A stretch of DNA of 30,855 nt from a virus (IMGVR_UViG_2874956758_000002:1-30855); one strand, 5' to 3'. Counted from the stretch's first letter, positions 1,153-30,855 are shown. Notes: a model not told the origin generated them from the letters alone. Program-made: numbers and translations.

Positions 1153-1196
1153 GACAGCCGTAAGCGTACAGCGAGGGCCGTATTGACGGGGATGTG

Positions 1197-2735
1197 TTAT
1201 TCAGCTGGCAGTGCTATGCGCCACGGAAGCAGTTCGCTGACCCGGTTGACCGGCCAGTCTGCTATGACGCCAAGCACATGGCGAAGGTAGCTTTCTGGAT
1301 CCACGTCATTCAGTTTGCACGTCCCGATCAGGCTGTACAGTAGCGCTCCCCGCTCACCACCATGGTCAGAGCCGAAGAACAGGAAGTTTTTACGACCCAG
1401 ACTGACCGCCCGCAGGGCATTTTCAGCGATGTTGTTGTCGATTTCCACCCAGCCATCGTTCGCATAGTACGTCAGTGCCGGCCACTGGTTAAGTGCGTAC
1501 GCGAACGCCTTCGCCAACTCTGAGTGTCGCGACAGGGTCTTCATCTTTTCACGCAACCAGCTTTCCAGGGATTTCAACAGCGGTTTCGTTTTTCGCTGAC
1601 GTTCAGCAAGCCGCTGCTCTGCCGGCATTCCCCTTATATCCGCCTCTATGGCGTACAACTGACCGAGCTGCTCCAGGGCTTCTTCCGTCAGTGCTGACGG
1701 GATGCGGACGTGCACATCGTGGATCTTTCGGCGGGCATGAGCCCAGCAGGCAGCTTCCGTTATCCCACCATTGCGGTACAGCTCGTTGAACCCGGCGTAC
1801 GCATCCGCTTGCAGCACACCGCTGAAGCAAGCAAGATGAGTCTGCGGATGGATGCCTTTTCTGTCCGGGCTGTAAGCGAACCACACTGCAGGTGCCAACG
1901 CTGACCCGGCATTGCGGTCATCACGAACATACGCCCACAACCGCCCGGTCTTCGTCTTCTTATTACCCGGCATCAGTACCTGGACCGGGGTATCATCAGC
2001 ATGGAGTTTGCCGTCAGTCATGACATAGCCATGAAGCGCCTCTTCCAGCGGAGACAGCAGCCGGCAGCATGCATCCACCCAGCCCGACAGCAGTGAACGG
2101 CTCAGCTCCACACCTTGCCGGCCGTATATTTCTGACTGGCGATACAGCGGGGTGTGCTCTGCATACTTCGAGGTCAGCACGCGGGCCAGCAGCCCCGGTC
2201 CGGCGATACCCCGCTCGATGGGCCGCGAAGGTGCAGGTGCCTGCACGATGGCATCGCACTGAGTACAGGCATGTTTTTCCCGTACCGTCCGGATAACCCG
2301 GAAGGCACTACGCATCAACTCCAGCTGTTCGGCGGTATCCTCGCCCAGATAGCTCAGTGAACCGCCGCAGTTCGGGCAGCACGGCGCCGCAGGCAACAGT
2401 CGCTTTTCGTCACGGGGTAGTGATTCAGGGAACGGCTTACGGGTGCGGGTCTGACGCAACGGACGCTGTACTGCCGGGTCATACACCCTACCAGTCAGCG
2501 TATCGCTCTCTTTCTGAAGCCGGTTCAGATCGGCTTCCATTTGTGCGATACGGCGGGAGACTTTTTCGGAACGACTGCCGAAGTTCATCCGGCGGAGTTT
2601 ATCCAGCTGCGCCTGCAGATGGTCTATTTCGCGCTCCCGGTTGCTCAGCTTTTCCTGCAGGGCATGGATCAGCGCTTCCTGTTCGGCCAGGCGCTGTTTC
2701 AGCAGGAAGATGTCGTCAGAAGAGATGTCGTTCAT
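1197..2735 (-). CDS. tnpC: IS66-family transposase TnpC
   Basis: 512-aa ORF with N-terminal coiled-coil, CxxC zinc-finger motifs (CCPNCGG, CTQCD) and the characteristic IS66 transposase core; near-identical to ORF 19558..21090. Confidence 0.9.
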
Positions 2736-2784
2736 AAGCCCGTATTTTACCGGGCTTATTCTGTGACAACCAGGATAAAGAGAT

Positions 2785-3132
2785 TTACAGCATGGTCAGG
2801 GAGGTCAGCAGCCGCTTAGGCTGTCGCCAGTCGATACCTTCCAGCAGCATCGCCAGCTGCGCCTGCGTAAGGAACACTTTGCCATCACGGGCTGACGGCC
2901 AGGCGAAGCGCCCACGCTCCAGCCGTTTGGTCAGGAGGCACAGTCCGTCACCGGTGGACCACAGCAGTTTAACCTGACTGCCGCTGCGGCCCCGGAAAAT
3001 GAAAACATGGCCGGACATGGGATCGTCTTTCAGCGCCGTCTGTACTTTCGCAGCCAGACCGTTGAAGCCATTTCTCATATCGGTGATACCGGCAACCAGC
3101 CAAATTTTGGTCCCGGAAGGTAACGGGATCAT
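2785..3132 (-). CDS. tnpB: IS66-family accessory protein TnpB (orf2)
   Basis: 115-aa ORF in the typical position, overlapping the upstream orfA stop (ATGA); identical to ORF 19161..19508. Confidence 0.9.
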
Positions 3133-3530
3133 CGCTTCAGTTCCTGTATCAGCAGAGTCAGGAGCTTTTCGCTGACATTGCCATTGAAGCGGAGCGTCCC
3201 GTGCCGGAACGTTACCTCACAGCTGATACTGAGGGTTTCCGGATCCTCTGCGAGCGATTCTGGCTGTTCGGCAGCTGCATCGAGAGTCACAGGAAGTAGC
3301 TGGGGGCTCTCTGAAGAAGGTAATAGCAGCTTTCCCTCGCGCCATTGTTGTCGCCATTTGAACAACAGATTGGCGTTAATGCCATTTTCAAGAGCAAGTT
3401 TTGAGATGGATATCCCGGGTTCACAGGAGGCAGCAACGAGCTGCTGTTTAAATTCGGGAGGATAATTAGGGCAGCCTTTTCGCCTGCCGGGAGTCACATT
3501 TTTCTGCATATCTGACACTTTGGTTCCCAC
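3129..3530 (-). CDS. tnpA: IS66-family accessory protein TnpA (orf1)
   Basis: 133-aa ORF, first gene of the IS66 operon; identical to ORF 18763..19164. Confidence 0.9.
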   Translation of the reverse strand: MGTKVSDMQKNVTPGRRKGCPNYPPEFKQQLVAASCEPGISISKLALENGINANLLFKWRQQWREGKLLLPSSESPQLLPVTLDAAAEQPESLAEDPETLSISCEVTFRHGTLRFNGNVSEKLLTLLIQELKR

Positions 3531-3600
3531 TACTTATTGGTGGACACCACTTTGTCTAATTCGTCAGATTCTGACCAGACGGTTCAGGCTGTACGCTTAC

Positions 3601-3704
3601 CGTTCTCCACCGACCTCTGTCAGATCGATTTCCCAGAGCACCACGCTGGCCGACTGCTCCGCACGGGTGCATTCATTCAGTGTTTCCTGCCGGATATCCT
3701 GCAT
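3601..3704 (-). pseudogene. L: 5' fragment (34 codons) of lambda-like minor tail protein L gene, interrupted by IS66 copy 1
   Basis: Minus-strand translation from ATG at 3702..3704 reads MQDIRQETLNECTRAEQSASVVLWEIDLTEVGGE, matching the lambda gpL N-terminus as recalled. Ends in GGAGAACG directly abutting the IS66 terminus. Confidence 0.85.
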
Positions 3705-9121: not shown

Positions 9122-9475
9122 TCAGCGGCGACGGTTAACGGCAGGCGGTACGCCCCGTCCAAGCCAGAGATGACAGCTTCCACCATCATCCGGCGAAACC
9201 CGATCTACCCAGAAGTTTTCCTCACCGATGGTCAGCGTGTCTCCACGCCGCAGCTGCAGCACCTCATCAGTCCGGACAAACAGGGGCGGGCTGGAGCCTT
9301 CAACGCGCACGCCCTGTCCGGCATAGCTGATATTTTCAGGGTCATCAAAAACACCACGTATCACAGCACCGGACTGCTCACCGGATGTCATGGTGGCTGA
9401 CGTTCCCATGTACCCGCGTATCGTTTCATCGGCTCGGGCAATGGCAGCATCGAACAGATTATCGAAATCAGCCAC
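9122..9475 (-). CDS. FII: lambda-like head-tail joining protein FII
   Basis: 117-aa ORF (MADFDNLFDAAIARADETIRGYMG...) matching lambda gpFII in sequence and length. Confidence 0.9.
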   Translation of the reverse strand: MADFDNLFDAAIARADETIRGYMGTSATMTSGEQSGAVIRGVFDDPENISYAGQGVRVEGSSPPLFVRTDEVLQLRRGDTLTIGEENFWVDRVSPDDGGSCHLWLGRGVPPAVNRRR

Positions 9476-9486
9476 AGCGCCTCCCG

Positions 9487-9882: not shown

Positions 9883-9923
9883 GGACTCCTCCACAGAGAG
9901 AAAATGGCCCCGAAGGGCCATGA

Positions 9924-10961
9924 TTACGCCAGTTGAACGGACACGAACTCATCAGGATCAGCCAGCAGCATCAGCGGTGCTGACTGAATCATGGTGAACT
10001 CTCGCGCCGGATCGCCGGATGTCTTCCAGTTTTTCGGATAACGGGGAGACGCATTAATACCCTCACTCAATGCATCCGCATCCTGAATACAGCCATAGGT
10101 ACGCAGACCGCGTGCATGAGTGTTACCCAGCACCATCGTGTTGTCCGGCAGGAAGTTCTTTTTGACGCCGTTTTCCACGTACTGTCCGGAATACACGACG
10201 ATGGCCACATCGCCATACATTCCCTTATAAGACACCGCTTTGCCCAGGTCTTTTACCGCTGTCTCCAGTTCGGAATTAGAACCACGACGGGTATCCAGAG
10301 CCTCTTTTATCGCTCTGAATGAACGGTATTTCTTCCATACATTACCGCCCATAATGATGATATTAGTGACGCCCTCACTAAATTCTGCGTAGCTCTCAAT
10401 ATCATCATTTGGATCAAAAGTTTCTTTATCCTTACCTGACCACTCAGCACCGCCAAACTGAGTGATGATATTTTGTGGTTTAATATTCCAGTCCAGCTCA
10501 TAACGTTCAATACCATCGCCCTCAATGATATTTTTCCCCGTTGTGATTGCCTGAACAGCAAGCCATTCAATACGTGCACGAATAGCTTTAGCTTGATTTA
10601 CAATCGCCTGTTTAACTTTAATATTACGCGCCCCAAAAGCATTGTATTGCTCAGGTGATACACCAGCAGGGCGCACAGCTAACTTATTTGGATCAATGCT
10701 GCTTTTCGGCTTCATATAGCCTGGACGAATTGTTTTTGATTCGTACCCTTCGTCACGTGAAACTTTACTACCCACCATAGGAGAACAAAACGCTGCAATT
10801 GGGATATTTGGATCGTCGATTGTATCAAGAATAATATCGCGCGATTCAAACATTACCGAGCGAGTAAAAAACAAACTGGTAAACAACGCATTTAGTTGTT
10901 TTTGTACATCTACAGCATTAACCACCTGTACAAGCTGAGTAGGCGAATATAAATCAACCAT
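9924..10961 (-). CDS. E: major capsid protein, lambda gpE family (mosaic: divergent 5' two-thirds, lambda-like 3' third)
   Basis: C-terminal ~115 aa (from LDTRRGSNSELETAVKDLGKAVSYKGMYGDV to SVQLA) are near-identical to lambda gpE as recalled; the N-terminal ~230 aa are homologous but divergent and AT-rich. Start assigned to ATG at 10959..10961 (MVDLYSPTQL) preceded by AGAGGA. Confidence 0.8.
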   Translation of the reverse strand: MVDLYSPTQLVQVVNAVDVQKQLNALFTSLFFTRSVMFESRDIILDTIDDPNIPIAAFCSPMVGSKVSRDEGYESKTIRPGYMKPKSSIDPNKLAVRPAGVSPEQYNAFGARNIKVKQAIVNQAKAIRARIEWLAVQAITTGKNIIEGDGIERYELDWNIKPQNIITQFGGAEWSGKDKETFDPNDDIESYAEFSEGVTNIIIMGGNVWKKYRSFRAIKEALDTRRGSNSELETAVKDLGKAVSYKGMYGDVAIVVYSGQYVENGVKKNFLPDNTMVLGNTHARGLRTYGCIQDADALSEGINASPRYPKNWKTSGDPAREFTMIQSAPLMLLADPDEFVSVQLA

Positions 10962-11178
10962 ACGCATCCTCTTTGCATTCATTAAAAATAATTGTGGATA
11001 TATGCTATCACCGATATTTGTCATGCGAACACATGCAACCGAGTGCAATGTTGTATAAAGTTTTGGGGTGACAACTTCAGTGCGGACAATTAGTGTTAAT
11101 ATCTTCACTCCCTTTGGTCGGGATTTATGTAGCATGCTGGAAAATTTATTTTTTCCGGCCTTTTTTTATTGGCAATAT

Positions 11179-11628
11179 TTAAAACGGGATATCATCTCCC
11201 CATTGCTCATTATCTCCCACTGGTGGCTGGCTTCCTTGCTGATCTGCCTGTTGTTTTGCTCTGTTCAGTGCGTCAGTAGCCTGCCCCTGTTGGCCTTTAT
11301 TGCCGCCCGGTCGCACCGATCGCGCACTGATTACGCTGTCTGCGATAACCTGCCAGCCCAGCCGCGTTTCGCCGTTCTGTCCAGTCCACTGGCTCGTCTG
11401 CATGTTACCCGCCACGCTCAGGAGTTCGCCTTTGTGATGCTTTGCCAGCGCGTCGGCTTGTCTGCCAAACGCCAGGACAGATAACCACATCGTCGCCTGA
11501 CCGTCATCCGACTGACTGCAGGGCAGTGATACCGCCATACGCGCCAGCGTCATGGGGGTGCCCTTGCTAGTCTGTTTTGTCTGCGGGTCGTCCACCAACC
11601 GCCCGTAAACTGATATTTGCGCCGTCAT
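11179..11628 (-). CDS. ssb: phage-type single-stranded DNA-binding protein (SSB)
   Basis: 149-aa ORF with an OB-fold-like N-terminal region, a Gly/Gln-rich linker and the SSB C-terminal acidic tail ending DDIPF. Confidence 0.75.
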   Translation of the reverse strand: MTAQISVYGRLVDDPQTKQTSKGTPMTLARMAVSLPCSQSDDGQATMWLSVLAFGRQADALAKHHKGELLSVAGNMQTSQWTGQNGETRLGWQVIADSVISARSVRPGGNKGQQGQATDALNRAKQQADQQGSQPPVGDNEQWGDDIPF

Positions 11629-11634
11629 GCTGCC

Positions 11635-11961
11635 TGAGGTAGCCTGAGTTTAACGGACACTCCTTCCTGAAATAGAATGGCATCAGAAGGAGCTAATAAT
11701 GAGCAGAAAAACCCAACGTTACTCTAAAGAGTTCAAAGCCGAAGCTGTCAGAACGGTTCTTGAAAATCAACTTTCGATCAGTGAAGGCGCTTCCCGATTA
11801 TCCCTTCCTGAAGGCACTTTAGGACAATGGGTTACCGCCGCCAGAAAAGGGCTCGGTACTCCTGGTTCCCGCACGGTGGCTGAACTGGAATCTGAAATTC
11901 TGCAACTGCGTAAGGCGTTAAATGAAGCTCGCCTTGAGCGAGATATATTAAAAAAAGCAAC
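11635..11961 (+). mobile_element. IS3-family (IS600-like) left-end fragment: IRL plus 5' ~93 codons of orfA, arm 1 of an inverted pair flanking IS30
   Basis: Begins TGAGGTAGCCTGAGTTTAACGG. Encodes the OrfA N-terminus MSRKTQRYSKEFKAEAVRTVLENQ...ILKKATVDS, then runs into the IS30 end; the rest of the element is absent. Confidence 0.7.
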
Positions 11962-13182
11962 TGTAGATTCAATTGGTCAACGCAACAGTTATGTGAAAAC
12001 ATGGGGTTGCGGAGGTTTTTTGAATGAGACGAACATTTACAGCAGAGGAAAAAGCCTCTGTTTTTGAACTATGGAAGAACGGAACAGGCTTCAGTGAAAT
12101 AGCGAATATCCTGGGTTCAAAACCCGGAACGATCTTCACTATGTTAAGGGATACTGGCGGCATAAAACCCCATGAGCGTAAGCGGGCTGTAGCTCACCTG
12201 ACACTGTCTGAGCGCGAGGAGATACGAGCTGGTTTGTCAGCCAAAATGAGCATTCGTGCGATAGCTACTGCGCTGAATCGCAGTCCTTCGACGATCTCAC
12301 GTGAAGTTCAGCGTAATCGGGGCAGACGCTATTACAAAGCTGTTGATGCTAATAACCGAGCCAACAGAATGGCGAAAAGGCCAAAACCGTGCTTACTGGA
12401 TCAAAATTTACCATTGCGAAAGCTTGTTCTGGAAAAGCTGGAGATGAAATGGTCTCCAGAGCAAATATCAGGATGGTTAAGGCGAACAAAACCACGTCAA
12501 AAAACGCTGCGAATATCACCTGAGACAATTTATAAAACGCTGTACTTTCGTAGCCGTGAAGCGCTACACCACCTGAATATACAGCATCTGCGACGGTCGC
12601 ATAGCCTTCGCCATGGCAGGCGTCATACCCGCAAAGGCGAAAGAGGTACGATTAACATAGTGAACGGAACACCAATTCACGAACGTTCCCGAAATATCGA
12701 TAACAGACGCTCTCTGGGACATTGGGAGGGCGATTTAGTCTCAGGTACAAAAAACTCTCATATAGCCACACTTGTAGACCGAAAATCACGTTATACGATC
12801 ATCCTTAGACTCAGGGGCAAAGATTCTGTCTCAGTAAATCAGGCTCTTACCGACAAATTCCTGAGTTTACCGTCAGAACTCAGAAAATCACTGACATGGG
12901 ACAGAGGAATGGAACTGGCCAGACATCTAGAATTTACTGTCAGCACCGGCGTTAAAGTTTACTTCTGCGATCCTCAGAGTCCTTGGCAGCGGGGAACAAA
13001 TGAGAACACAAATGGGCTAATTCGGCAGTACTTTCCTAAAAAGACATGTCTTGCCCAATATACTCAACATGAACTAGATCTGGTTGCTGCTCAGCTAAAC
13101 AACAGACCGAGAAAGACACTGAAGTTCAAAACACCGAAAGAGATAATTGAAAGGGGTGTTGCATTGACAGATTGAATCTACA
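11962..13182 (+). mobile_element. IS30, complete (1221 bp)
   Basis: Terminal inverted repeats TGTAGATTCAAT at both ends; single 383-aa transposase ORF; length matches IS30. Confidence 0.9.
12024..13175 (+). CDS. insI: IS30 transposase
   Basis: 383-aa ORF with N-terminal HTH and C-terminal DDE domain, recognised as the IS30 transposase. Confidence 0.9.
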   Translation: MRRTFTAEEKASVFELWKNGTGFSEIANILGSKPGTIFTMLRDTGGIKPHERKRAVAHLTLSEREEIRAGLSAKMSIRAIATALNRSPSTISREVQRNRGRRYYKAVDANNRANRMAKRPKPCLLDQNLPLRKLVLEKLEMKWSPEQISGWLRRTKPRQKTLRISPETIYKTLYFRSREALHHLNIQHLRRSHSLRHGRRHTRKGERGTINIVNGTPIHERSRNIDNRRSLGHWEGDLVSGTKNSHIATLVDRKSRYTIILRLRGKDSVSVNQALTDKFLSLPSELRKSLTWDRGMELARHLEFTVSTGVKVYFCDPQSPWQRGTNENTNGLIRQYFPKKTCLAQYTQHELDLVAAQLNNRPRKTLKFKTPKEIIERGVALTD

Positions 13183-13508
13183 GTTGCTTTTTTTAATATA
13201 TCTCGCTCAAGGCGAGCTTCATTTAACGCCTTACGCAGTTGCAGAATTTCAGATTCCAGTTCAGCCACCGTGCGGGAACCAGGAGTACCGAGCCCTTTTC
13301 TGGCGGCGGTAACCCATTGTCCTAAAGTGCCTTCAGGAAGGGATAATCGGGAAGCGCCTTCACTGATCGAAAGTTGATTTTCAAGAACCGTTCTGACAGC
13401 TTCGGCTTTGAACTCTTTAGAGTAACGTTGGGTTTTTCTGCTCATTATTAGCTCCTTCTGATGCCATTCTATTTCAGGAAGGAGTGTCCGTTAAACTCAG
13501 GCTACCTC
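13183..13508 (-). mobile_element. IS3-family (IS600-like) left-end fragment, arm 2, inverted copy of 11635..11961
   Basis: Reverse complement reproduces the same IRL and OrfA N-terminus (ORF 13095..13445 is identical through VDSI). Its outer end overlaps the xis start codon. Confidence 0.7.
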
Positions 13509-13745
13509 ATGGGCAATGTGATTCAACTGGCTCCCAATGAATGGGTTTGTGAAAGCGTTCTTATCGCAATTACCGGGCTCAAACCAGGCACAATTCTCCG
13601 AGCCCGGAAAGAATGCTGGATGGTAGGAAGAGAGTATATTCACGTATCACCAGACGGTAATCCAAAGCCATCCAGCGAATGTATGTATAACAGAAAAGCA
13701 ATAGATGCCTGGGTCTCTTCAATGAAAAACAAACAACCTGGGTGA
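13508..13745 (+). CDS. xis: putative excisionase (DUF1233-type Xis)
   Basis: Small ORF immediately upstream of and co-oriented with the integrase; motif pattern (IQLAPNEWV...LTGLKPGTI.RARKECWMVGREY) resembles DUF1233 excisionases as recalled. Start taken at ATG 13508..13510; the ORF track begins 16 codons upstream, inside the IS arm. Confidence 0.6.
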
Positions 13746-13800
13746 TTTAATGCCATGAAGTATGTAAGCTCGTATCGCTCTTGGGCGTCTGGAGGTATCA

Positions 13801-15114
13801 ATGGATAAAGTCAAATATCCAACAGGCGTCGAAAACCACGGTGGCACATTACGCATCTGGTTTAATTTTAAAGGTAAACGTGTCAGGGAAAATCTTGGTG
13901 TCCCTGACACTGCCAAGAACAGGAAGATCGCCGGAGAGCTGCGGACATCTGTATGTTTTGCCATTCGTACAGGAAATTTTGATTATGCTGCGCAGTTCCC
14001 TGACTCTCCTAACCTCAAGGCTTTTGGGGTAAATAAAAAAGAAATTACGGTGAAAGAACTTGAAGAAAAATGGCTGGATCTGAAACGAATGGAAATCTCT
14101 GCAAATGCATTCAATCGCTATGAATCCATTGCAAGGATGATGGTTCCGAAGATTGGTGGCAACCGACTGGTATCAGCAGTGACCAAAGAGGAATTGCTGT
14201 ATATCAGGAAAGATTTGCTGACCGGATACCAAAATCCAACAAAAGGTAAAGCTCCAGTAAAAGGACGAAGCGTTGTCACAGTAAATTATTACATGACAAC
14301 AATCGCTGGAATGTTTCAGTTTGCTGCAGATCACGGTTACTTAGAAGCAAATCCCTTCGAGGGAATTAAGCCTCTTAAAAGAGCCAAGGCAGAACCAGAT
14401 CCGCTAACTCGTGACGAATTTATTCGCCTGATAGATGCTTGCCGGCATCAGCAGACAAAAAACCTGTGGTCATTGGCTGTGTACACAGGAATGCGTCATG
14501 GTGAACTGGTCTCCCTGGCCTGGGAAGATATCGATCTGAAAGCAGGAACAATTACTATCAGGCGCAATTATACGAAACTCGGTGAGTTCACTCTACCTAA
14601 AACTGAAGCAAGTACAAACAGGGTTGTGCATCTTATCCAGCCCGCTATCAGTGTCCTGAAAAATCAGGCTGAAATGACAAGACTGGGTAAGCAGCACAAC
14701 ATCAAGGTTCAACTACGTGAATATGGACGTTCAGTAAATCATGAATGTACTTTCGTATTTAACCCCCAGGTGGTTAGAAAAAGCAAACAGGTAGGTTTTA
14801 TCTACAAGGTAGATTCCATTGGCGACTCATGGGAAACAGCCATTAAACGTGCAGGCATCAGGCATCGAAAGGCATACCAGTCACGACACACTTATGCGTG
14901 CTGGTCATTATCTGCCGGAGCAAATCCAAGCTTCATTGCCAGCCAGATGGGGCATGCAAGTGCCCAGATGGTGTTCAATGTATACGGAGCATGGATGACT
15001 GACAGCAATGCAGAACAGATCGCAATGCTGAATCAGAAGCTGGCAGATTATGTCCCAATGATGTCCCATGGTCACCAAAGTGACACAAGAGGCTTATTAA
15101 AATCAGTGAGTTAG
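13801..15114 (+). CDS. int: prophage tyrosine integrase
   Basis: 437-aa ORF with a C-terminal tyrosine-recombinase catalytic region (R...HxxR...Y); RBS GGAGG upstream; reads toward the host junction as lambda int does. Confidence 0.9.
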   Translation: MDKVKYPTGVENHGGTLRIWFNFKGKRVRENLGVPDTAKNRKIAGELRTSVCFAIRTGNFDYAAQFPDSPNLKAFGVNKKEITVKELEEKWLDLKRMEISANAFNRYESIARMMVPKIGGNRLVSAVTKEELLYIRKDLLTGYQNPTKGKAPVKGRSVVTVNYYMTTIAGMFQFAADHGYLEANPFEGIKPLKRAKAEPDPLTRDEFIRLIDACRHQQTKNLWSLAVYTGMRHGELVSLAWEDIDLKAGTITIRRNYTKLGEFTLPKTEASTNRVVHLIQPAISVLKNQAEMTRLGKQHNIKVQLREYGRSVNHECTFVFNPQVVRKSKQVGFIYKVDSIGDSWETAIKRAGIRHRKAYQSRHTYACWSLSAGANPSFIASQMGHASAQMVFNVYGAWMTDSNAEQIAMLNQKLADYVPMMSHGHQSDTRGLLKSVS

Positions 15115-15140: not shown

Positions 15141-15866
15141 GTGGAGGGCAACACCACGCTTTACGCCCTGCCCAAACTCGAGGTTGTCCTGCGCTGGCGT
15201 GAGCAGACCACAGATGACTTCCGCTTCTGTTTTAAGTTTCCGGCGACCATTTCGCATCAGGCAGCATTACGGTATTGCGATGATTTAGTGACTGAATTTT
15301 TGACCCGCATGTCACCGTTAGCGCCGCGCATTGGGCAATACTGGGTGCAACTGCCTGCCACATTTGGCCCACGGGATCTGCCTGCGCTTTGGCATTTTCT
15401 CGACTCTCTTCCCGGCGAGTTTAATTATGGTGTGGAAGTCCGCCATCCACAGTTTTTCGCCAAAGGGGAAGAGGAACAAACACTTAATCGCGGTTTACAT
15501 CAGCGCGGCGTTAATCGGGTGATTTTAGACAGCCGCCCGGTTCATGCAGCACGTCCACACAGTGAAGCTATTCGCGACGCTCAACGAAAAAAACCTAAAG
15601 TTCCGGTACATGCTGTACTGACGGCGACAAATCCGCTGATCCTTTTTATCGGTAGTGATGATATGACGCAAAACCGGGAATTATTTCAGGTCTGGTTACA
15701 AAAATTAGCGCAGTGGCATCAGACCACTACGCCTTATCTTTTTTTACATACGCCAGATATTGCCCAGGCCCCGGAACTGGTACATATCCTGTGGGAAGAC
15801 TTACGTAAAACGCTTCCAGAGATCGGAGCAGTTCCGGCTATTCCACAGCAATCTTCTCTTTTCTGA
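15141..15866 (+). CDS. yecE: DUF72-family protein YecE, 5'-truncated by prophage integration
   Basis: 241-aa ORF directly upstream of yecN-cmoA-cmoB as in the E. coli K-12 gene order; N-terminal ~30 aa missing relative to recalled YecE. Confidence 0.7.
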   Translation: MEGNTTLYALPKLEVVLRWREQTTDDFRFCFKFPATISHQAALRYCDDLVTEFLTRMSPLAPRIGQYWVQLPATFGPRDLPALWHFLDSLPGEFNYGVEVRHPQFFAKGEEEQTLNRGLHQRGVNRVILDSRPVHAARPHSEAIRDAQRKKPKVPVHAVLTATNPLILFIGSDDMTQNRELFQVWLQKLAQWHQTTTPYLFLHTPDIAQAPELVHILWEDLRKTLPEIGAVPAIPQQSSLF

Positions 15867-15918
15867 ATTTGCCACCTATCATAGACAGGTGCCATCGGCC
15901 ATTTTAAAGGGAGTTTGT

Positions 15919-18066
<2,148 letters not shown>

Positions 18067-18071
18067 AGATT

Positions 18072-18094
18072 AGCGCCCGTTTCCGGGCGCTTTT
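18072..18094. terminator. rho-independent terminator between cmoB and the torZ remnant (likely bidirectional)
   Basis: GC-rich hairpin AGCGCCCG-TTTC-CGGGCGCT followed by TTTT, immediately after the cmoB stop. Confidence 0.7.
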
Positions 18095-18100
18095 CACGTC

Positions 18101-18331
18101 TTATGCCTGAACAGCTGGCTGATCAAACGCCGTTAACTTCGGCGCATTGCTCGTATATTTTTCGATATACACCAGCGCAGAGTTACCGGCACAGACATTT
18201 GCCAGCTGAGAGCTGGGGATATCCGCCGTTAACACGTTCGCACTGCCGTTTTTACACAAGCCATTTTCCAGATCTGGCCATGCACCTTCATGCACGCATA
18301 CCACGCCTTTTTTGATCCCGTCAGTCACCAC
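18101..18331 (-). pseudogene. torZ: 3' remnant of a molybdopterin oxidoreductase gene, probably torZ
   Basis: 76 codons with DMSO-reductase-family C-terminal character, convergent with cmoB as torZ is in K-12. No ATG (frame starts at GTG); the remaining ~700 codons are absent, replaced upstream by IS sequence. Confidence 0.55.
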
Positions 18332-18387
18332 CGCGCCTGTCAGAATCGGGGATGCGGACGATTTCCTGGACTCTCAGGAGATAACAC

Positions 18388-18692: not shown

Positions 18693-18762
18693 GTAAGCGT
18701 ACAGCCTGAACCGTCTGGTCAGAATCTGACGAATTAGACAAAGTGGTGTCCACCAATAAGTA

Positions 18763-19164
18763 GTGGGAACCAAAGTGTCAGATATGCAGAAAAATGTGAC
18801 TCCCGGCAGGCGAAAAGGCTGCCCTAATTATCCTCCCGAATTTAAACAGCAGCTCGTTGCTGCCTCCTGTGAACCCGGGATATCCATCTCAAAACTTGCT
18901 CTTGAAAATGGCATTAACGCCAATCTGTTGTTCAAATGGCGACAACAATGGCGCGAGGGAAAGCTGCTATTACCTTCTTCAGAGAGCCCCCAGCTACTTC
19001 CTGTGACTCTCGATGCAGCTGCCGAACAGCCAGAATCGCTCGCAGAGGACCCGGAAACCCTCAGTATCAGCTGTGAGGTAACGTTCCGGCACGGGACGCT
19101 CCGCTTCAATGGCAATGTCAGCGAAAAGCTCCTGACTCTGCTGATACAGGAACTGAAGCGATGA
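18763..19164 (+). CDS. tnpA: IS66-family TnpA (orf1)
   Basis: 133 aa, identical to 3129..3530 product. Confidence 0.9.
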   Translation: MGTKVSDMQKNVTPGRRKGCPNYPPEFKQQLVAASCEPGISISKLALENGINANLLFKWRQQWREGKLLLPSSESPQLLPVTLDAAAEQPESLAEDPETLSISCEVTFRHGTLRFNGNVSEKLLTLLIQELKR

Positions 19165-19508
19165 TCCCGTTACCTTCCGGGACCAAAATTTGGCTGGTTG
19201 CCGGTATCACCGATATGAGAAATGGCTTCAACGGTCTGGCTGCGAAAGTACAGACGGCGCTGAAAGACGATCCCATGTCCGGCCATGTTTTCATTTTCCG
19301 GGGCCGCAGCGGCAGTCAGGTTAAACTGCTGTGGTCCACCGGTGACGGACTGTGCCTCCTGACCAAACGGCTGGAGCGTGGGCGCTTCGCCTGGCCGTCA
19401 GCCCGTGATGGCAAAGTGTTCCTTACGCAGGCGCAGCTGGCGATGCTGCTGGAAGGTATCGACTGGCGACAGCCTAAGCGGCTGCTGACCTCCCTGACCA
19501 TGCTGTAA
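19161..19508 (+). CDS. tnpB: IS66-family TnpB (orf2)
   Basis: 115 aa, identical to 2785..3132 product. Confidence 0.9.
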
Positions 19509-19557
19509 ATCTCTTTATCCTGGTTGTCACAGAATAAGCCCGGTAAAATACGGGCTT

Positions 19558-21090
19558 ATGAACGACATCTCTTCTGACGACATCTTCCTGCTGAAACAGC
19601 GCCTGGCCGAACAGGAGATCCACGCCCTGCAGGAAAAGCTGAGCAACCGGGAGCGCGAAATAGACCATCTGCAGGCGCAGCTGGATAAACTCCGCCGGAT
19701 GAACTTCGGCAGTCGTTCCGAAAAAGTCTCCCGCCGTATCGCACAAATGGAAGCCGATCTGAACCGGCTTCAGAAAGAGAGCGATACGCTGACTGGTAGG
19801 GTGTATGACCCGGCAGTACAGCGTCCGTTGCGTCAGACCCGCACCCGTAAGCCGTTCCCTGAATCACTACCCCGTGACGAAAAGCGACTGTTGCCTGTGG
19901 CGCCGTGCTGCCCGAACTGCGGCGGTTCACTGAGCTATCTGGGCGAGGATACCGCCGAACAGCTGGAGTTGATGCGTAGTGCCTTCCGGGTTATCCGGAC
20001 GGTACGGGAAAAACATGCCTGTACTCAGTGCGATGCCATCGTGCAGGCACCTGCACCTTCGCGGCCCATCGAGCGGGGTATCGCCGGACCGGGGCTGCTG
20101 GCCCGCGTGCTGACCTCGAAGTATGCAGAGCACACCCCGCTGTATCGCCAGTCAGAAATATACGGCCGGCAAGGTGTGGAGCTGAGCCGTTCACTGCTGT
20201 CGGGCTGGGTGGATGCATGCTGCCGGCTGCTGTCTCCGCTGGAAGAGGCGCTTCATGGCTATGTCATGACTGACGGCAAACTCCATGCTGATGATACCCC
20301 GGTCCAGGTACTGATGCCGGGTAATAAGAAGACGAAGACCGGGCGGTTGTGGGCGTATGTTCGTGATGACCGCAATGCCGGGTCAGCGTTGGCACCTGCA
20401 GTGTGGTTCGCTTACAGCCCGGACAGAAAAGGCATCCATCCGCAGACTCATCTTGCTTGCTTCAGCGGTGTGCTGCAAGCGGATGCGTACGCCGGGTTCA
20501 ACGAGCTGTACCGCAATGGTGGGATAACGGAAGCTGCCTGCTGGGCTCATGCCCGCCGAAAGATCCACGATGTGCACGTCCGCATCCCGTCAGCACTGAC
20601 GGAAGAAGCCCTGGAGCAGCTCGGTCAGTTGTACGCCATAGAGGCGGATATAAGGGGAATGCCGGCAGAGCAGCGGCTTGCTGAACGTCAGCGAAAAACG
20701 AAACCGCTGTTGAAATCCCTGGAAAGCTGGTTGCGTGAAAAGATGAAGACCCTGTCGCGACACTCAGAGTTGGCGAAGGCGTTCGCGTACGCACTTAACC
20801 AGTGGCCGGCACTGACGTACTATGCGAACGATGGCTGGGTGGAAATCGACAACAACATCGCTGAAAATGCCCTGCGGGCGGTCAGTCTGGGTCGTAAAAA
20901 CTTCCTGTTCTTCGGCTCTGACCATGGTGGTGAGCGGGGAGCGCTACTGTACAGCCTGATCGGGACGTGCAAACTGAATGACGTGGATCCAGAAAGCTAC
21001 CTTCGCCATGTGCTTGGCGTCATAGCAGACTGGCCGGTCAACCGGGTCAGCGAACTGCTTCCGTGGCGCATAGCACTGCCAGCTGAATAA
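19558..21090 (+). CDS. tnpC: IS66-family transposase TnpC
   Basis: 510 aa; versus copy 1 lacks two codons (EQEIHALQ vs [10 protein letters not shown]) and has A for V at one position (PAAPCC vs PVAPCC). Confidence 0.9.
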
Positions 21091-21127
21091 CACATCCCCG
21101 TCAATACGGCCCTCGCTGTACGCTTAC

Positions 21128-21730
21128 GGAGAACGTTATTTTTTCTGTAATGAGCAGAACGAAAAAGGTGAGCCGGTCACCTGGCAGGGGCGACAGTATC
21201 AGCCGTATCCCATTCAGGGGAGTGGTTTTGAACTGAATGGCAAAGGCACCAGTACGCGCCCCACGCTGACGGTTTCTAACCTGTTCGGTATGGTCACCGG
21301 GATGGCGGAAGATCTGCAGAGTCTGGTCGGCGGAACGGTGGTCCGGCGTAAGGTTTACGCCCGTTTTCTGGATGCGGTGAACTTCGTCAACGGAAACAGT
21401 GACGCCGATCCGGAGCAGGAGGTGATCAGCCGCTGGCGCATTGAGCAGTGCAGCGAACTGAGCGCGGTGAGTGCCTCTTTTGTACTGTCCACGCCGACGG
21501 AAACGGACGGCGCTGTTTTTCCGGGACGTATCATGCTGGCCAACACCTGCACCTGGACCTATCGCGGCGATGAGTGCGGTTATCACGGTCCGGCGGTCGC
21601 GGATGAATATGACCAGCCAACGTCCGATATCACGAAGGATAAATGCAGCAAATGCCTGAGCGGTTGTAAGTTCCGCAATAACGTCGGCAACTTTGGCGGC
21701 TTCCTTTCCATTAACAAACTTTCGCAGTAA
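21128..21730 (+). pseudogene. L: 3' fragment of lambda-like minor tail protein L gene, separated from its 5' end by IS66 and inversion
   Basis: In-frame translation from 21128 reads GERYFFCNEQNEKGEPVTWQGRQYQPYPIQGSGFELNGKGTSTRPTLTVSNL...SINKLSQ, matching lambda gpL residues ~33 to the end. Begins with GGAGAACG, the same 8 bp that end the 5' fragment at 3601..3608. Confidence 0.9.
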
Positions 21731-21735
21731 ATACC

Positions 21736-22479
21736 ATGACACAGACAGAATCAGCGATTCTGGCGCACGCCCGGCGATGTGCGCCAGCGGAGTCGTGCGG
21801 CTTCGTGGTAAGCACGCCGGAGGGGGAAAGATATTTCCCCTGCGTGAATATCTCCGGTGAGCCGGAGGCGTATTTCCGTATGTCGCCGGAAGACTGGCTG
21901 CAGGCAGAAATGCAGGGTGAGATCGTGGCGCTGGTCCACAGCCACCCCGGTGGTCTGCCCTGGCTGAGTGAGGCCGACCGGCGGCTGCAGGTGCAGAGTG
22001 ATTTGCCGTGGTGGCTGGTCTGCCGGGGGACGATTCATAAGTTCCGCTGTGTGCCGCATCTCACCGGGCGGCGCTTTGAGCACGGGGTGACGGACTGTTA
22101 CACGCTGTTCCGGGATGCTTATCATCTGGCGGGGATTGAGATGCCGGATTTTCATCGCGAGGATGACTGGTGGCGTCACGGTCAGAATCTCTATCTGGAT
22201 AATCTGGAGGCCACAGGGCTGTATCAGGTGCCGTTGTCATCAGCACAACCGGGCGATGTGCTGCTGTGCTGTTTTGGTTCATCGGTGCCGAATCATGCCG
22301 CCATTTACTGTGGTGATGGCGAGCTGCTGCACCATATTCCTGAACAACTGAGCAAACGAGAGAGGTATACCGACAAATGGCAGCGACGCACACACTCCCT
22401 CTGGCGTCACCGGGCATGGCGCGCATCTGCCTTTACGGGGATTTGCAACGATTTGGCCGCCGCATCGACCTTCGTGTGA
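21736..22479 (+). CDS. K: lambda-like tail tip assembly protein K
   Basis: Matches lambda gpK including the HSHP metal-binding motif. The lambda-annotated 199-aa start corresponds to ATG 21880; the ORF is open from ATG 21736. 3' end overlaps I by ~100 bp as in lambda. Confidence 0.85.
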   Translation: MTQTESAILAHARRCAPAESCGFVVSTPEGERYFPCVNISGEPEAYFRMSPEDWLQAEMQGEIVALVHSHPGGLPWLSEADRRLQVQSDLPWWLVCRGTIHKFRCVPHLTGRRFEHGVTDCYTLFRDAYHLAGIEMPDFHREDDWWRHGQNLYLDNLEATGLYQVPLSSAQPGDVLLCCFGSSVPNHAAIYCGDGELLHHIPEQLSKRERYTDKWQRRTHSLWRHRAWRASAFTGICNDLAAASTFV

Positions 22480-23048
22480 AAACGGGGGCTGAAGCCATCC
22501 GCGCACTGGCCACACAGCTCCCGGTGTTTCGTCAGAAACTGAGCGACGGCGGGTATCAGGTACGGATTGCCGGGCGGGACGTCAGCACGTCCGGGTTAAC
22601 GGCGCAGTTACATGAGACTCTGCCTGATGGCGCTGTGATTCATATTGTTCCCAGAGTCGCCGGGGCCAAGTCAGGTGGCGTATTCCAGATTGTCCTGGGG
22701 GCTGCCGCCATTGCCGGATCATTCTTTACCGCCGGAGCCACCCTTGCAGCATGGGGGGCAGCCATTGGGGCCGGTGGTATGACCGGCATCCTGTTTTCTC
22801 TCGGTGCCAGTATGGTGCTCGGTGGTGTGGCGCAGATGCTGGCACCGAAAGCCAGAACTCCCCGTACACAGACAACGGATAACGGCAAACAGAACACCTA
22901 TTTCTCCTCACTGGATAACATGGTTGCCCAGGGCAATGTTCTGCCGGTTCTGTACGGTGAAATGCGCGTGGGGTCACGCGTGGTTTCTCAGGAGATCAGC
23001 ACGGCAGACGAAGGGGATGGTGGTCAGGTTGTGGTGATTGGTCGCTGA
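22377..23048 (+). CDS. I: lambda-like tail tip assembly protein I
   Basis: 223-aa ORF (MAATHTLPLASPGMARICLYGDLQRF...) matching lambda gpI in sequence and length. Confidence 0.9.
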   Translation: MAATHTLPLASPGMARICLYGDLQRFGRRIDLRVKTGAEAIRALATQLPVFRQKLSDGGYQVRIAGRDVSTSGLTAQLHETLPDGAVIHIVPRVAGAKSGGVFQIVLGAAAIAGSFFTAGATLAAWGAAIGAGGMTGILFSLGASMVLGGVAQMLAPKARTPRTQTTDNGKQNTYFSSLDNMVAQGNVLPVLYGEMRVGSRVVSQEISTADEGDGGQVVVIGR

Positions 23049-23105
23049 TGCATAATGTTTTATGTGAAACCGCCTCCGGGCGGTTTTATCGTTTATGGAG
23101 CATGA

Positions 23106-26478
<3,373 letters not shown>

Positions 26479-26500
26479 AATATTTATAACCCCAATAAAT

Positions 26501-26526
26501 GGCGTCAGGAATGACGCCTTTTTTAT
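26501..26526 (+). terminator. rho-independent terminator downstream of J
   Basis: Hairpin GGCGTCA-GGAA-TGACGCC followed by TTTTTTAT. Confidence 0.7.
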
Positions 26527-26548
26527 TGCAGAAAAGCGAGAGGTAATT

Positions 26549-27148
26549 ATGCGTAAAGTTTGTGCAGCCATTTTGTCCGCAGCCATTTGTCTGGCCGTAT
26601 CCGGTGCGCCTGCATGGGCGTCTGAACATCAGTCCACGCTGAGCGCGGGGTATCTTCATGCCCGGACCAACGTTCCCGGCAGTGATGATCTGAACGGGAT
26701 TAACGTGAAATATCGTTATGAGTTTACGGATACGCAGGGGCTGGTGACGTCATTCAGCTATGCAGGAGACAAGAATCGCCAGCTTACCCGTTACAGCGAT
26801 ACCCGCTGGCATGAAGATTCCGTGCGTAACCGCTGGTTCAGCGTGATGGCGGGGCCGTCTGTGCGCGTGAATGAATGGTTCAGCGCGTATGCGATGGCGG
26901 GTATGGCTTACAGCCGTGTTTCGATTTTCTCCGGAGATTATATCCGCGTAACTGACAACAAGGGGAAAAAGCACGATGTGCTGACCGGAAGTGATGACGG
27001 TCGCCACAGCAACACGTCTCTGGCGTGGGGGGCTGGCGTGCAGTTTAACCCGACCGAATCCGTGGCCATTGATATTGCTTATGAAGGCTCCGGCAGTGGT
27101 GACTGGCGCACTGACGGTTTCATCGTGGGTGTCGGTTATAAATTCTGA
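26549..27148 (+). CDS. lom: Lom outer membrane protein (Ail/Lom family)
   Basis: 199-aa ORF with signal peptide ([24 protein letters not shown]) and a C-terminal aromatic residue (GYKF) typical of a beta-barrel; position between J and stf as in lambda. Confidence 0.85.
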
Positions 27149-27173
27149 TTAGCCAGGTAACACAGTGTTATGA

Positions 27174-27200
27174 CAGCCCGCCGGTTCAGGCGGGCTTTTT
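27174..27200 (+). terminator. rho-independent terminator downstream of lom
   Basis: Hairpin AGCCCGCC-GGTTCA-GGCGGGCT followed by TTTTTG. Confidence 0.65.
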
Positions 27201-27211
27201 GTGGGGTGAAT

Positions 27212-30200: not shown

Positions 30201-30274
30201 CCGTTAACGCTGCTGGTAACGCGGAAAACACCGTCAAAAACATCGCATTTAACTATATTGTGAGGCTTGCATAA
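27212..30274 (+). CDS. stf: side tail fibre protein Stf, full length
   Basis: Starts [26 protein letters not shown] as in lambda Stf; long Ala/Ser/Thr-rich repeat shaft; C-terminal His-rich GAHxH repeats and terminal [22 protein letters not shown]. The ORF track start at 27170 overlaps the lom terminator and is rejected. Confidence 0.85.
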
Positions 30275-30855
30275 TGGCATTCAGAATGAGTGAACAAGCA
30301 CGGACCATAAAAATTTATAATCTGCTAGCCGGAACTAATGAATTTATTGGTGAAGGTGACGCATATATTCCGCCTCATACAGGTCTGCCAGCAAACAGTA
30401 CCGATATTGCACCACCAGATATTCCTGCTGGCTTCCTGGCTGTTTTCAACAGTGATGAGGCATCGTGGCATCTCGTTGAAGATCATCGGGGTAAAACGGT
30501 TTATGACGTAGCGTCAGGGGACGCGTTATTTATTTCTGAACTCGGTCCGTTACCGGAAAATGTTACCTGGTTATCGCCGGAAGGGGAGTTTCAGAAGTGG
30601 AACGGCACAGCCTGGGTGAAAGATGCAGAAGCAGAAAAACTGTTCCGGATCCGGGAGGCGGAAGAAACAAAAAACAGCCTGATGCAGGTAGCCAGTGAGC
30701 ATATTGCGCCACTTCAGGATGCTGTAGATCTGGAGATCGCAACGGAGGAAGAAAACTCGTTGCTGGAAGCCTGGAAGAAGTATCGGGTGTTGCTGAACCG
30801 TGTTGATACATCAACTGCACCTGATATTGAGTGGCCTGTAATACCAGAAGTTTAA
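30274..30855 (+). CDS. tfa: tail fibre assembly protein Tfa
   Basis: 193-aa ORF overlapping the stf stop (ATAATGG); Tfa-like sequence; stop codon TAA is the last 3 bases of the window. Confidence 0.85.

What the first reader, a model, noticed from the sequence alone, without database searches (positions are those of the whole stretch)
9924..13745. Prophage lacks DNA-packaging, portal/scaffold, lysis and early-region genes; an ssb gene sits directly upstream of the capsid gene
In lambda, E is preceded by Nu1, A, W, B, C, Nu3 and D. Here the gene immediately upstream of E is a phage-type SSB (11179..11628, same strand), followed by IS fragments and then xis-int. There is no room for terminase, portal, protease or decoration genes, nor for replication, immunity or lysis modules, between int (13801) and E (10961). 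The element is therefore a defective remnant that has kept a nearly complete tail module and accessory genes lom, stf and tfa, probably through IS-associated deletion.
Basis: inference. Interest (0 to 1): 0.4.

Follow-up and report, generated by a model that had tools for sequence, protein, structure and literature searches.

The report
Satellite remnant fused to dead prophage
The "misplaced" ssb gene and the first two-thirds of the capsid gene are leftovers of a known phage satellite (a helper-embedded PICI) that sat inside the capsid gene of a lambda-like prophage in Shigella dysenteriae; insertion sequences have since scrambled the region into an immobile patchwork, so it is ordinary genome decay.

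Summary
Between the capsid gene (9924-10961, minus strand) and int (13801) lie only a 217-bp spacer, ssb, IS600/IS30 sequence and xis. No terminase, portal, protease, decoration, lysis, replication or immunity gene is found in the window or up to the element's right end.

- **The ssb is not the prophage's own gene.** ssb, the spacer and capsid nucleotides 1-693 are 96.5-97% identical to the replication/late border of E:Phage_cap_E:80 helper-embedded PICIs (prototype 11capE of E. coli NRG857c; Tommasini et al. 2023).
- **The capsid gene is a hybrid.** One in-frame crossover at window 10264-10268 joins the satellite's capsid gene to the 3' third of the helper's gene E. It deleted the satellite's decoration gene, cos, cargo and attR.
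- **Two prophages are joined.** xis-int belong to a yecE-integrated prophage. The late genes end at an icd-type attR (sitABCD, icd fragment, iraM). These loci are 755 kb apart in K-12, so the IS600-IS30-IS600 palindrome is probably an inversion joint, not a deletion scar.
- **The tail module is broken too.** L is split by an IS66-family element and a 17.5-kb inversion. Z and J are frameshifted.

This is a decayed example of known kinds. Interest is low.

The parts
9924..10961 (-). Hybrid major capsid gene (345 codons, intact ORF, Phage_cap_E)
   Evidence: Pfam PF03864; chimera profile
9924..10263 (-). Helper-derived 3' third of the capsid gene (lambda E-like)
   Evidence: All 132 diagnostic sites match the helper 'E fragment. 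The C-terminal part is 95% identical in protein to lambda E and 49% to the satellite capsid.
10264..10268 (-). Crossover interval inside a ~35-bp patch of satellite/helper similarity (codons ~222-233, LDTRRGSNSELE)
   Evidence: The last satellite-diagnostic site is at 10269 and the first helper-diagnostic site at 10263.
10269..10961 (-). Satellite-derived 5' two-thirds of the capsid gene (captured late-zone capsid gene of an HE-PICI)
   Evidence: 197 of 198 diagnostic sites match the satellite. Residues 1-230 are 98.7% identical in protein to the L001 satellite capsid and 38% to lambda E. GC drops to 0.44-0.45 here, against 0.575 in the flanking late genes.
10962..11178 (-). 217-bp ssb-capsid spacer of the satellite
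   Evidence: Same 217-bp spacing in the prototype 11capE (L012 10030-10246). It lies within the 96.5% match.
11179..11628 (-). ssb (149 aa, ends ...GDDIPF), last gene of the satellite's replication zone
   Evidence: PF00436; 96% protein identity to the ssb of 11capE; SSB is assigned to the PICI replication zone in PMC10111431
11635..11961 (+). IS600 nucleotides 1-327 (IRL and 5' part of orfA), starting 7 bp upstream of the ssb start codon
   Evidence: 100% identical to an intact IS600 in L010; inverted repeat I3; junction sequence
11962..13182 (+). Complete IS30 (1221 bp; transposase 12024-13175)
   Evidence: Pfam HTH_38/rve; ends read; 99.5% identical to a K-12 IS30 copy
13183..13509 (-). Second, inverted copy of IS600 nucleotides 1-327, abutting the xis start codon
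   Evidence: There is no 3-bp target duplication around the composite (GCC against TGG), so this is a recombinant joint.
13509..13745 (+). xis (78 aa, DUF1233) of a yecE-integrated prophage
   Evidence: PF06806; collinear with L010 from 24164 onward
13801..15114 (+). Tyrosine integrase of the yecE-integrated prophage
   Evidence: Arm-DNA-bind_2 plus Phage_integrase. It has no similarity to the satellite int or to the icd-prophage int.
15141..18347 (+). Chromosomal flank: 3' part of yecE, yecN, cmoA, cmoB, and the 3' end of torZ (18072-18347, minus strand)
   Evidence: 95-96% collinear with E. coli RMDEC332 and in the K-12 gene order
1158..3600 (-). IS66-family element, copy A (TnpA/TnpB/TnpC)
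   Evidence: Inverted repeats I1 and I2; Pfam; flanked at 3601-3608 by the target duplication CGTTCTCC in gene L
18693..21129 (+). IS66-family element, copy B. It is identical to copy A apart from the 6 nt at 2671-2676 that copy A has in addition.
   Evidence: flanked at 21130-21137 by GGAGAACG, the same target duplication inverted
3600..3704 (-). Gene L, codons 1-35
   Evidence: tblastn
21128..21727 (+). Gene L, codons 33-232
   Evidence: tblastn; PF05100
3707..9882 (-). Helper late genes FI, FII, Z (frameshifted: 9110-8868 and 8880-8536), U, V, G, T, H, M
   Evidence: tblastn; Pfam
21736..30855 (+). K, I, J (frameshift near codon 1007), lom, stf, tfa
   Evidence: tblastn; Pfam

Best explanation
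The window is Shigella dysenteriae CP026831.1:1711725-1742579. It holds an immobile patchwork of three mobile elements, not one deleted prophage.

Step 1. A lambda-like prophage was integrated in icd and carried sitABCD at its right end.

Step 2. A helper-embedded PICI of the E:Phage_cap_E:80 type (like 11capE of E. coli NRG857c) integrated at codon 80 of that prophage's capsid gene E. Such satellites carry int-alpA, a Bro zone, primase-ssb, and then a captured capsid gene, a decoration gene, cos and defence cargo.

Step 3. A single crossover in a ~35-bp similarity patch joined the satellite's capsid gene to the displaced 3' fragment of helper E. About 3.5-3.9 kb were lost: the satellite capsid 3' third, the decoration gene, an HTH gene, cos, cargo, attR, and E codons ~80-230. 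The result is an in-frame hybrid capsid gene with ssb 217 bp upstream.

Step 4. Two IS600 copies recombined through IS30, which recurrently sits at IS600 nucleotide 327. One IS600 copy lay 7 bp upstream of ssb. The other lay at the start codon of xis in a different prophage, integrated in yecE. This left the IS600L-IS30-IS600L palindrome. Because the two loci are 755 kb apart and flank the terminus in K-12, the event was most likely a large inversion. It would have moved the satellite's int-to-primase part and the helper's head, packaging, lysis and early genes elsewhere.

Step 5. An IS66-family element in gene L and a second copy at torZ then inverted 17.5 kb. Z and J acquired frameshifts.

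Consequences. The element has a yecE-type attL and an icd-type attR, and it has no cos, terminase, portal, replication or lysis genes. It cannot excise, replicate, package or make tails.

Shown: the origins of each segment, the crossover, the IS structures, the target duplication, and both element ends. Inferred: the order of events, the inversion (as opposed to another rearrangement), and the role of IS30.
For: Identity of the window: 100% match to CP026831.1; proteins named Shigella dysenteriae.

Satellite origin:
- In E. coli relatives, ssb lies in a ~12-kb element inserted in gene E. That element has int, HTH, an Icd-like gene, primase, ssb, capsid, decoration and defence cargo.
- The relatives' att junctions carry the published identity block AGCCGAAGCA.
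- The published doubled TGTATTGC arm motif is present twice in the prototype.
- The family is described in PMC10111431.
- Window 10192-11636 is 96.5-97% identical to these satellites.
- The ssb-capsid pair is in 366 of 5,426 complete E. coli genomes and in none of 50,697 phage records.

Hybrid capsid gene:
- Diagnostic sites run 197 satellite-type, then 132 helper-type, with one switch at 10264-10268.
- A GC step coincides with the switch.
- The fused arrangement is absent from all 5,426 E. coli genomes.
- It is present in 2 NCBI assemblies and 7 contigs assembled from sequencing runs, so it is not an assembly artefact.
- Only 2 of the 16 satellite genes are detectable in the window. Neither the att-arm motif nor cos is present.

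Two prophages:
- Right end: tfa, catalase/DUF892, sitDCBA, a 168-bp icd fragment, iraM, ymgL. This is collinear at 94-98% with the intact icd prophage of BH100N.
- Left end: xis, int, yecE through the torZ 3' end, collinear with the RMDEC332 yecE prophage.
- K-12 distance between the loci.

IS joint:
- Palindrome structure; no target duplication around it.
- IS30 sits at IS600 nucleotide 327 in both orientations in 1,284 and 850 E. coli genomes, and a palindromic version exists in strain M217.

IS66 inversion:
- The 8-bp duplication CGTTCTCC is split between the two inverted copies.
- torZ is split: its 3' end is at 18072-18347, and a molybdopterin-oxidoreductase fragment lies left of the window start.
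Against: The reciprocal junction of the proposed large inversion was not retrieved, so inversion rather than some other multi-step rearrangement is inferred from flanking synteny only. Lambdoid prophages recombine freely, so the boundary between yecE-prophage and icd-prophage DNA could in principle lie elsewhere than the IS palindrome. The outer flanks of the two IS66-family copies carry no matching target duplication, so at least one further IS event is unaccounted for. The order of the events is unknown. All genomes found to carry the hybrid also carry the IS66 inversion.
Confidence: 0.8

Rival explanations
1. One reading: one yecE-integrated lambda-like prophage that carried its own ssb next to the head genes and lost packaging, head, lysis and early modules through an IS-mediated internal deletion.
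For: int-xis and the late genes have the relative orientation expected for one lambda-type prophage, and an IS joint lies between them.
Against: ssb and the capsid 5' part are satellite DNA and are absent from all 50,697 phage records. The right end is an icd-type attR, not yecE'. The capsid gene is a hybrid.
Confidence: 0.08
2. The ssb-capsid segment belongs to a still-functional satellite (PICI, cf-PICI or HE-PICI) that could be mobilised by a helper phage.
For: [quoted passage not shown]
Against: The satellite int, alpA, primase, decoration gene and cargo are absent. Both att arms are absent. There is no cos site. The upstream side is cut by IS600 7 bp from the ssb start codon.
Confidence: 0.02
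3. The hybrid is not a deletion product but an ancestral mosaic capsid allele, and satellites captured its 5' part from such a phage.
For: HE-PICIs capture late genes from helpers, and a short patch of high similarity exists between satellite and helper capsid genes.
Against: The satellite-type sequence continues upstream through the spacer and ssb, which are not head-operon genes. The fused arrangement occurs in no E. coli complete genome and in no phage record. It was found only in this S. dysenteriae lineage.
Confidence: 0.04
4. The junctions are assembly artefacts caused by repeats.
For: The region is full of IS copies and holds a long palindrome, both of which are hard to assemble.
Against: The hybrid capsid and its flanks recur in two independent NCBI chromosomes and in contigs assembled from several sequencing runs. 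The crossover lies in unique sequence.
Confidence: 0.01

Closest known systems
HE-PICI of site group E:Phage_cap_E:80; prototype Eco567.11capE in E. coli NRG857c (Tommasini, Mageeney and Williams 2023, PMC10111431)
   Same: ssb, the 217-bp spacer and a capsid gene lie in the same order and orientation. Window 10192-11636 is 96.5% identical in nucleotides. The segment sits immediately upstream of the helper's 'E-FI-FII-Z-U-V genes.
   Different: The window keeps only 2 of about 16 genes. It has no int, alpA, Bro zone, primase, decoration gene, cos, cargo or att sites, and the capsid gene is fused to the helper's E.
icd-integrated lambda-like prophage carrying sitABCD (for example E. coli BH100N, NZ_CP025703.1:1285000-1334900). 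From my own knowledge, not tested here: the helper '50icd' of NRG857c and the CFT073 icd island are of this kind.
   Same: FII through tfa, sitDCBA, the icd fragment and the flank are collinear at 94-98% identity.
   Different: The window lacks everything from int through D. E is replaced by the hybrid, L is split and inverted, Z and J are frameshifted, a catalase/DUF892 block lies between tfa and sit, and an IS lies before the icd fragment.
yecE-integrated lambdoid prophage (for example E. coli RMDEC332, NZ_CM177021.1)
   Same: xis, int, the integration point in yecE and the chromosomal flank up to torZ match at 95.9%.
   Different: Only xis and int remain. IS600 abuts the xis start codon, and all other genes of that prophage are absent from the window.
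Chromosomal gram-negative PICIs such as EcCICFT073
   Same: They share the four-zone plan, with SSB at the end of the replication zone followed by late-zone genes.
   Different: Those elements integrate in chromosomal genes, not in a helper late gene.
Cryptic lambdoid prophages and IS-driven rearrangement in Shigella (general knowledge, not tested here)
   Same: IS insertions, inversions between IS copies, and retention of useful cargo genes (sitABCD).
   Different: Here the scar additionally contains a satellite remnant and a satellite/helper gene fusion.

Membership tests
HE-PICI (E:Phage_cap_E:80 group) | Integrase of the HE-PICI clade at the upstream end, with AlpA/HTH next to it | tested here: not met
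   tblastn with the 11capE int and HTH proteins found no hit in the window. Both are present in relatives L001 and L012.
HE-PICI (E:Phage_cap_E:80 group) | Insertion at codon ~80 of a lambda-E homologue, with a 10-bp identity block at attL and attR | tested here: not met
   Neither junction is present in the window. Relatives have AGCCGAAGCA at both ends. The helper E codons 1-80 and about 80-230 are missing.
HE-PICI (E:Phage_cap_E:80 group) | Doubled TGTATTGC motif in both attP arms | tested here: not met
   0 matches in the window at up to 3 mismatches; 2 correctly placed matches in the prototype.
HE-PICI (E:Phage_cap_E:80 group) | Replication zone with primase and SSB | tested here: inconclusive
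   SSB is present and 96% identical. Primase and the gene upstream of ssb are absent, cut off by IS600.
HE-PICI (E:Phage_cap_E:80 group) | Late zone with its own capsid gene, co-oriented with the helper late operon | tested here: inconclusive
   The 5' 693 nt of the satellite capsid gene are present and co-oriented. The 3' third, the decoration gene and cos are deleted. Verdict: a remnant derived from a member, not a member able to function.
Lambda-like temperate prophage (complete) | cos, terminase, portal, protease/scaffold, decoration and capsid genes | tested here: not met
   No Nu1, A, W, B, C or D by tblastn. No cos. The capsid gene is a hybrid.
Lambda-like temperate prophage (complete) | Immunity, replication, antitermination and lysis genes | tested here: not met
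   No repressor, O, P, Q, holin or endolysin homologue.
Lambda-like temperate prophage (complete) | Matching attL and attR for its integrase | tested here: not met
   The left end is yecE-type with its int. The right end is icd-type.
Lambda-like temperate prophage (complete) | Intact Z-to-J tail operon | tested here: not met
   Z and J are frameshifted, and L is split by an IS66-family element and inverted.
IS66-family insertion followed by inversion | 8-bp target duplication and TnpA/TnpB/TnpC genes | tested here: met
   CGTTCTCC flanks one side of each inverted copy and occurs once in the uninterrupted L gene. Pfam TnpB_IS66 and DDE_Tnp_IS66.

The most novel reading that the evidence does not exclude
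The in-frame fusion of a satellite's captured capsid gene to the interrupted helper gene could be more than a scar. It could be a general route by which a helper prophage regains a complete capsid gene without satellite excision, locking the satellite in place and moving satellite capsid sequence into phages. The hybrid protein might still assemble, or might poison capsids of superinfecting lambdoid phages. The ORF is intact in a region where Z, J and L are broken. However, no other example of a fusion was found in 5,426 E. coli genomes, and sister strains have lost the ssb ATG.
Probability: 0.05. Interest if true: 0.5.

Novelty: new member of a known kind. Interest (0 to 1): 0.25.

Why it matters
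The main value is as a correction for annotation. A "phage ssb next to a capsid gene" inside a lambda-like late operon marks a helper-embedded satellite, not a rearranged phage. Integrase-based searches miss remnants like this one. The supplementary files of the HE-PICI paper that are held as text contain no mention of S. dysenteriae. The case also documents one concrete fate of such satellites: irreversible fusion to the helper through the captured homologous gene. It further shows that an apparently single Shigella "prophage" can be the joint of two prophages at different attachment sites. No new biology is demonstrated.

Tried and rejected
- **Reciprocal junction of the proposed inversion.** A protein search with the satellite primase returned only clusters named E. 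coli among the 120 listed, so no route into CP026831.1 was found. The look-up tools cannot target a chosen genome, so the reciprocal joint was not retrieved.
- **Literature on the accession.** A search for CP026831 found no paper.
- **Promoter and terminator scan of 9800-13900**. Counts were no higher than in shuffled sequence, so nothing can be said about expression of ssb or the capsid gene.
- **Rfam and tRNA scans**. No satellite immunity RNA (C4/isrK) and no tRNA, as expected if the Bro zone is gone.
- **The IS600-IS30-IS600 palindrome as a mobile composite.** Rejected for this locus because its flanks lack a 3-bp target duplication.
- **The 383-aa ORF at 1-1152 as a second IS30.** Rejected. 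It is an IS3-family transposase (HTH_21/rve).
- **That ORF and the orfA fragment at 18388-18696 as halves of one IS split by the IS66-family element.** Not resolved. No matching 8-bp duplication was found.


Full report
**Source.** The window is 100% identical to Shigella dysenteriae CP026831.1 (GCA_002950055.1), positions 1711725-1742579. The capsid and SSB proteins are named Shigella dysenteriae in NCBI.

**Observation.** On the minus strand the window has, in order:
- late genes M, H, T, G, V, U, Z, FII and FI;
- a Phage_cap_E capsid gene at 9924-10961;
- a 217-bp spacer;
- an SSB gene at 11179-11628.

To the right follow IS sequence, xis (13509-13745), int (13801-15114) and the 3' part of yecE.

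I ran tblastn with every head, packaging, lysis, replication, immunity and integration protein of an intact relative. It found no Nu1, A, W, B, C, D, holin, endolysin, Q, O, P, repressor or icd-type int. The 10 kb beyond tfa contains only cargo genes and the prophage end.

**Where the ssb comes from.** A megablast of the region against 5,426 complete E. coli genomes gave matches in two pieces, separated by several kb of variable genes. In E. coli PRO_A-2576 (L001) the ssb lies inside a ~12.4-kb element inserted into gene E of a lambda-like prophage. The order there is:
- D and the first 82 codons of E;
- then tyrosine integrase, a small HTH protein, an Icd-like protein, DUF4222, primase, a small ORF, ssb, a second complete capsid gene, a second decoration gene, an HTH gene, a terminase small-subunit pseudogene and DUF2971;
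- then the remaining 263 codons of E, followed by FI, FII and the tail genes.

This is the helper-embedded PICI (HE-PICI) of Tommasini, Mageeney and Williams (PMC10111431). It is a satellite that integrates at codon 80 of lambda-E homologues (site E:Phage_cap_E:80, 201 instances) and carries its own capsid gene. It has four zones: integration, Bro, replication (primase, SSB) and late.

The att junctions of L001 carry the published identity block AGCCGAAGCA. The prototype 11capE of E. coli NRG857c (L012) has ssb, a 217-bp spacer and the capsid gene exactly as in the window. Window 10192-11636 is 96.5% identical to it.

The ssb-capsid pair occurs in 366 of 5,426 E. coli genomes, close to the paper's estimate of about 5.4%. 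It occurs in none of 50,697 phage records, even at low stringency.

**The capsid gene is a hybrid.** I aligned the window gene with the satellite capsid genes and the helper 'E fragments of L001 and NRG857c.
- 197 of 198 diagnostic sites are satellite-type from nucleotide 258 to 693 (window 10704-10269).
- All 132 diagnostic sites are helper-type from nucleotide 699 to the end (window 10263-9927).
- Upstream of nucleotide 258 no helper sequence is available for comparison, but identity to the satellite is 98-100%.

The switch lies in GAACTGGA, within a ~35-bp patch where the two genes are nearly identical. In protein, residues 1-230 are 98.7% identical to the satellite capsid and 38% to lambda E. 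Residues 231-345 are 95% identical to lambda E and 49% to the satellite capsid. GC content steps from 0.575 in the neighbouring late genes (9001-10000) to 0.44-0.45 over the satellite-derived stretch.

Relative to intact composites, 3.5-3.9 kb are missing: the satellite capsid 3' third, the decoration gene, HTH, cos, cargo, attR, and E codons ~80-230.

The fused arrangement is in no complete E. coli genome. The exact protein is encoded in two NCBI chromosomes and in contigs assembled from several sequencing runs, so it is real and specific to this lineage.

Of the satellite's 16 genes, only ssb and the capsid gene are detectable in the window. The doubled TGTATTGC arm motif is absent from the window but present twice in the prototype. 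The lambda-like cos region is present in both intact satellites and absent from the window.

**The IS joint.** Seven bp upstream of the ssb ATG, the satellite sequence is cut by the left end of IS600. Nucleotides 1-327 of IS600 (11635-11961) are followed by a complete IS30 (11962-13182). Then comes the same 327 bp of IS600 inverted (13183-13509), ending at the xis start codon.

The flanks show no 3-bp target duplication (GCC against TGG). The structure is therefore a recombinant joint between two IS600 insertions, not one insertion.

IS30 sits at IS600 nucleotide 327 in both orientations in 1,284 and 850 E. coli genomes, K-12 included. A palindromic version exists at another locus in strain M217. 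Recombination between two such composites, or attack by IS30 on a second IS600, explains the symmetry. That step is inference.

Sister genomes (L003, L005, L007) lack the palindrome but keep 10 bp of the IS600 end (GGCTACCTCA), and the ssb start codon reads CTG instead of ATG there. This is a secondary deletion of the palindrome across a TCA microhomology.

**Two prophages, not one.**
- Right of the window, tfa is followed by a Mn-catalase, two DUF892 genes, a KGG gene, sitDCBA, an IS, a 168-bp icd 3' fragment, iraM and ymgL.
- This stretch, and the tail genes from FII onward, are collinear at 94-98% with an intact lambda-like prophage integrated in icd in E. coli BH100N. That prophage runs icd, int, xis, early genes, Nu1 through tfa, sitDCBA, icd fragment, ymgL.
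- By contrast, xis, int, yecE, yecN, cmoA, cmoB and the 3' end of torZ are collinear at 95.9% with the left end of a different, yecE-integrated prophage in E. coli RMDEC332.

In K-12, icd and yecE are 755 kb apart. From my own knowledge, that interval straddles the replication terminus and contains essential genes. The joint therefore cannot be a deletion between the two loci. Gene orientations on both sides fit a single large inversion with endpoints in the two prophages. I could not retrieve the reciprocal junction, so this step is inferred.

**A second, local inversion.** Two copies of an IS66-family element lie in inverted orientation at 1158-3600 and 18693-21129. They are identical apart from 6 nt (2671-2676) that only the first copy has. 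Each has on one side a copy of the 8-bp sequence CGTTCTCC, which occurs once in uninterrupted gene L. L codons 1-35 sit at 3704-3600 (minus strand) and codons 33-232 at 21128-21727 (plus strand). torZ is likewise split: its 3' end is at 18072-18347, and a molybdopterin-oxidoreductase fragment lies just left of the window. Undoing this 17.5-kb inversion restores the order xis-int-side / ssb, E through L, K through tfa. Z and J are frameshifted in the window, whereas Z is intact in sister genome L003.

**Function.** The patchwork has a yecE-type attL with its integrase and an icd-type attR. It has no cos, terminase, portal, protease, replication, immunity or lysis genes, and L, Z and J are broken. 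It cannot excise, replicate, package, lyse or build tails. The satellite remnant lacks everything needed for its own mobility. What may still be expressed is cargo (lom here; sitABCD outside the window) and possibly ssb and the hybrid capsid. The promoter scan gave nothing above chance.

**Verdict.** It is wrong about what ssb and 'E' are, probably wrong that one prophage suffered a deletion, and too generous about the tail module. The components all belong to known kinds, and the satellite/helper capsid fusion is a small new detail.

Noticed in passing
window 11628-13509, compared with L003 9327-9337, L005 and L007: Sister genomes have precisely lost the IS600L-IS30-IS600L palindrome across a TCA microhomology. 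They keep 10 bp of the IS600 end (GGCTACCTCA), and the ssb start codon is changed from ATG to CTG.
   Followed up: yes
window 11950-11975 and 13170-13195; L015 (K-12), L016, L017, L018: IS30 is inserted after IS600 nucleotide 327 in both orientations in 1,284 and 850 of 5,426 E. coli genomes. This looks like a recurrent IS30 target inside the IS3-family orfA. K-12 has IS600 nt 1-327 plus IS30 next to a different IS3-family fragment at the fec locus.
   Followed up: partly
window 2671-2676 against 19616/19617: The two IS66-family copies are 100% identical apart from 6 nt that only the first copy has, giving TnpC proteins of 512 and 510 aa. Their outer flanks (1150-1157 and 18685-18692) carry no matching 8-bp duplication, so another IS event is unaccounted for.
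   Followed up: partly
window 1-1152 (minus strand) and 18388-18696 (plus strand): An IS3-family transposase ORF (383 aa, HTH_21/rve) lies at the left edge, and an HTH_Tnp_1/HTH_28 orfA-like fragment lies next to the torZ 3' end. They may be parts of one IS interrupted by the IS66-family element.
   Followed up: no
window 30617-30815 (plus strand): A full-length Rfam match to the family IS009 (RF02111, 227.9 bits) lies inside tfa.
   Followed up: no
window 26090-26472: J changes frame near codon 1007. The following segment is only 40% identical to the C-terminal domain of the BH100N J protein. This suggests a swapped receptor-binding end as well as a frameshift.
   Followed up: no
window 8536-9110: Z is frameshifted in this genome but intact (192 aa) in sister genome L003. 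Decay is ongoing within the lineage.
   Followed up: partly
L008 13806-22125 (CP026831.1, just right of the window): A Mn-catalase, two DUF892 genes and a KGG-repeat gene lie between tfa and sitDCBA, where E. coli BH100N has no such block. A further IS (DDE_Tnp_1) interrupts the stretch before the icd fragment.
   Followed up: no
L001 21997-22755; L012 12537-14253; hits H7, H10 and H19: The attR-proximal end of intact capE-type HE-PICIs is a variable cargo slot. It holds DUF2971, DUF262 plus HEPN, a restriction endonuclease or a TIR-domain protein, so it looks like a defence hotspot.
   Followed up: no
window 10962-11135: The capsid reading frame stays open for 58 codons upstream of the true start, giving the 403-aa ORF. 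Homologues start at 10961, so this is a chance extension and not a longer protein.
   Followed up: yes
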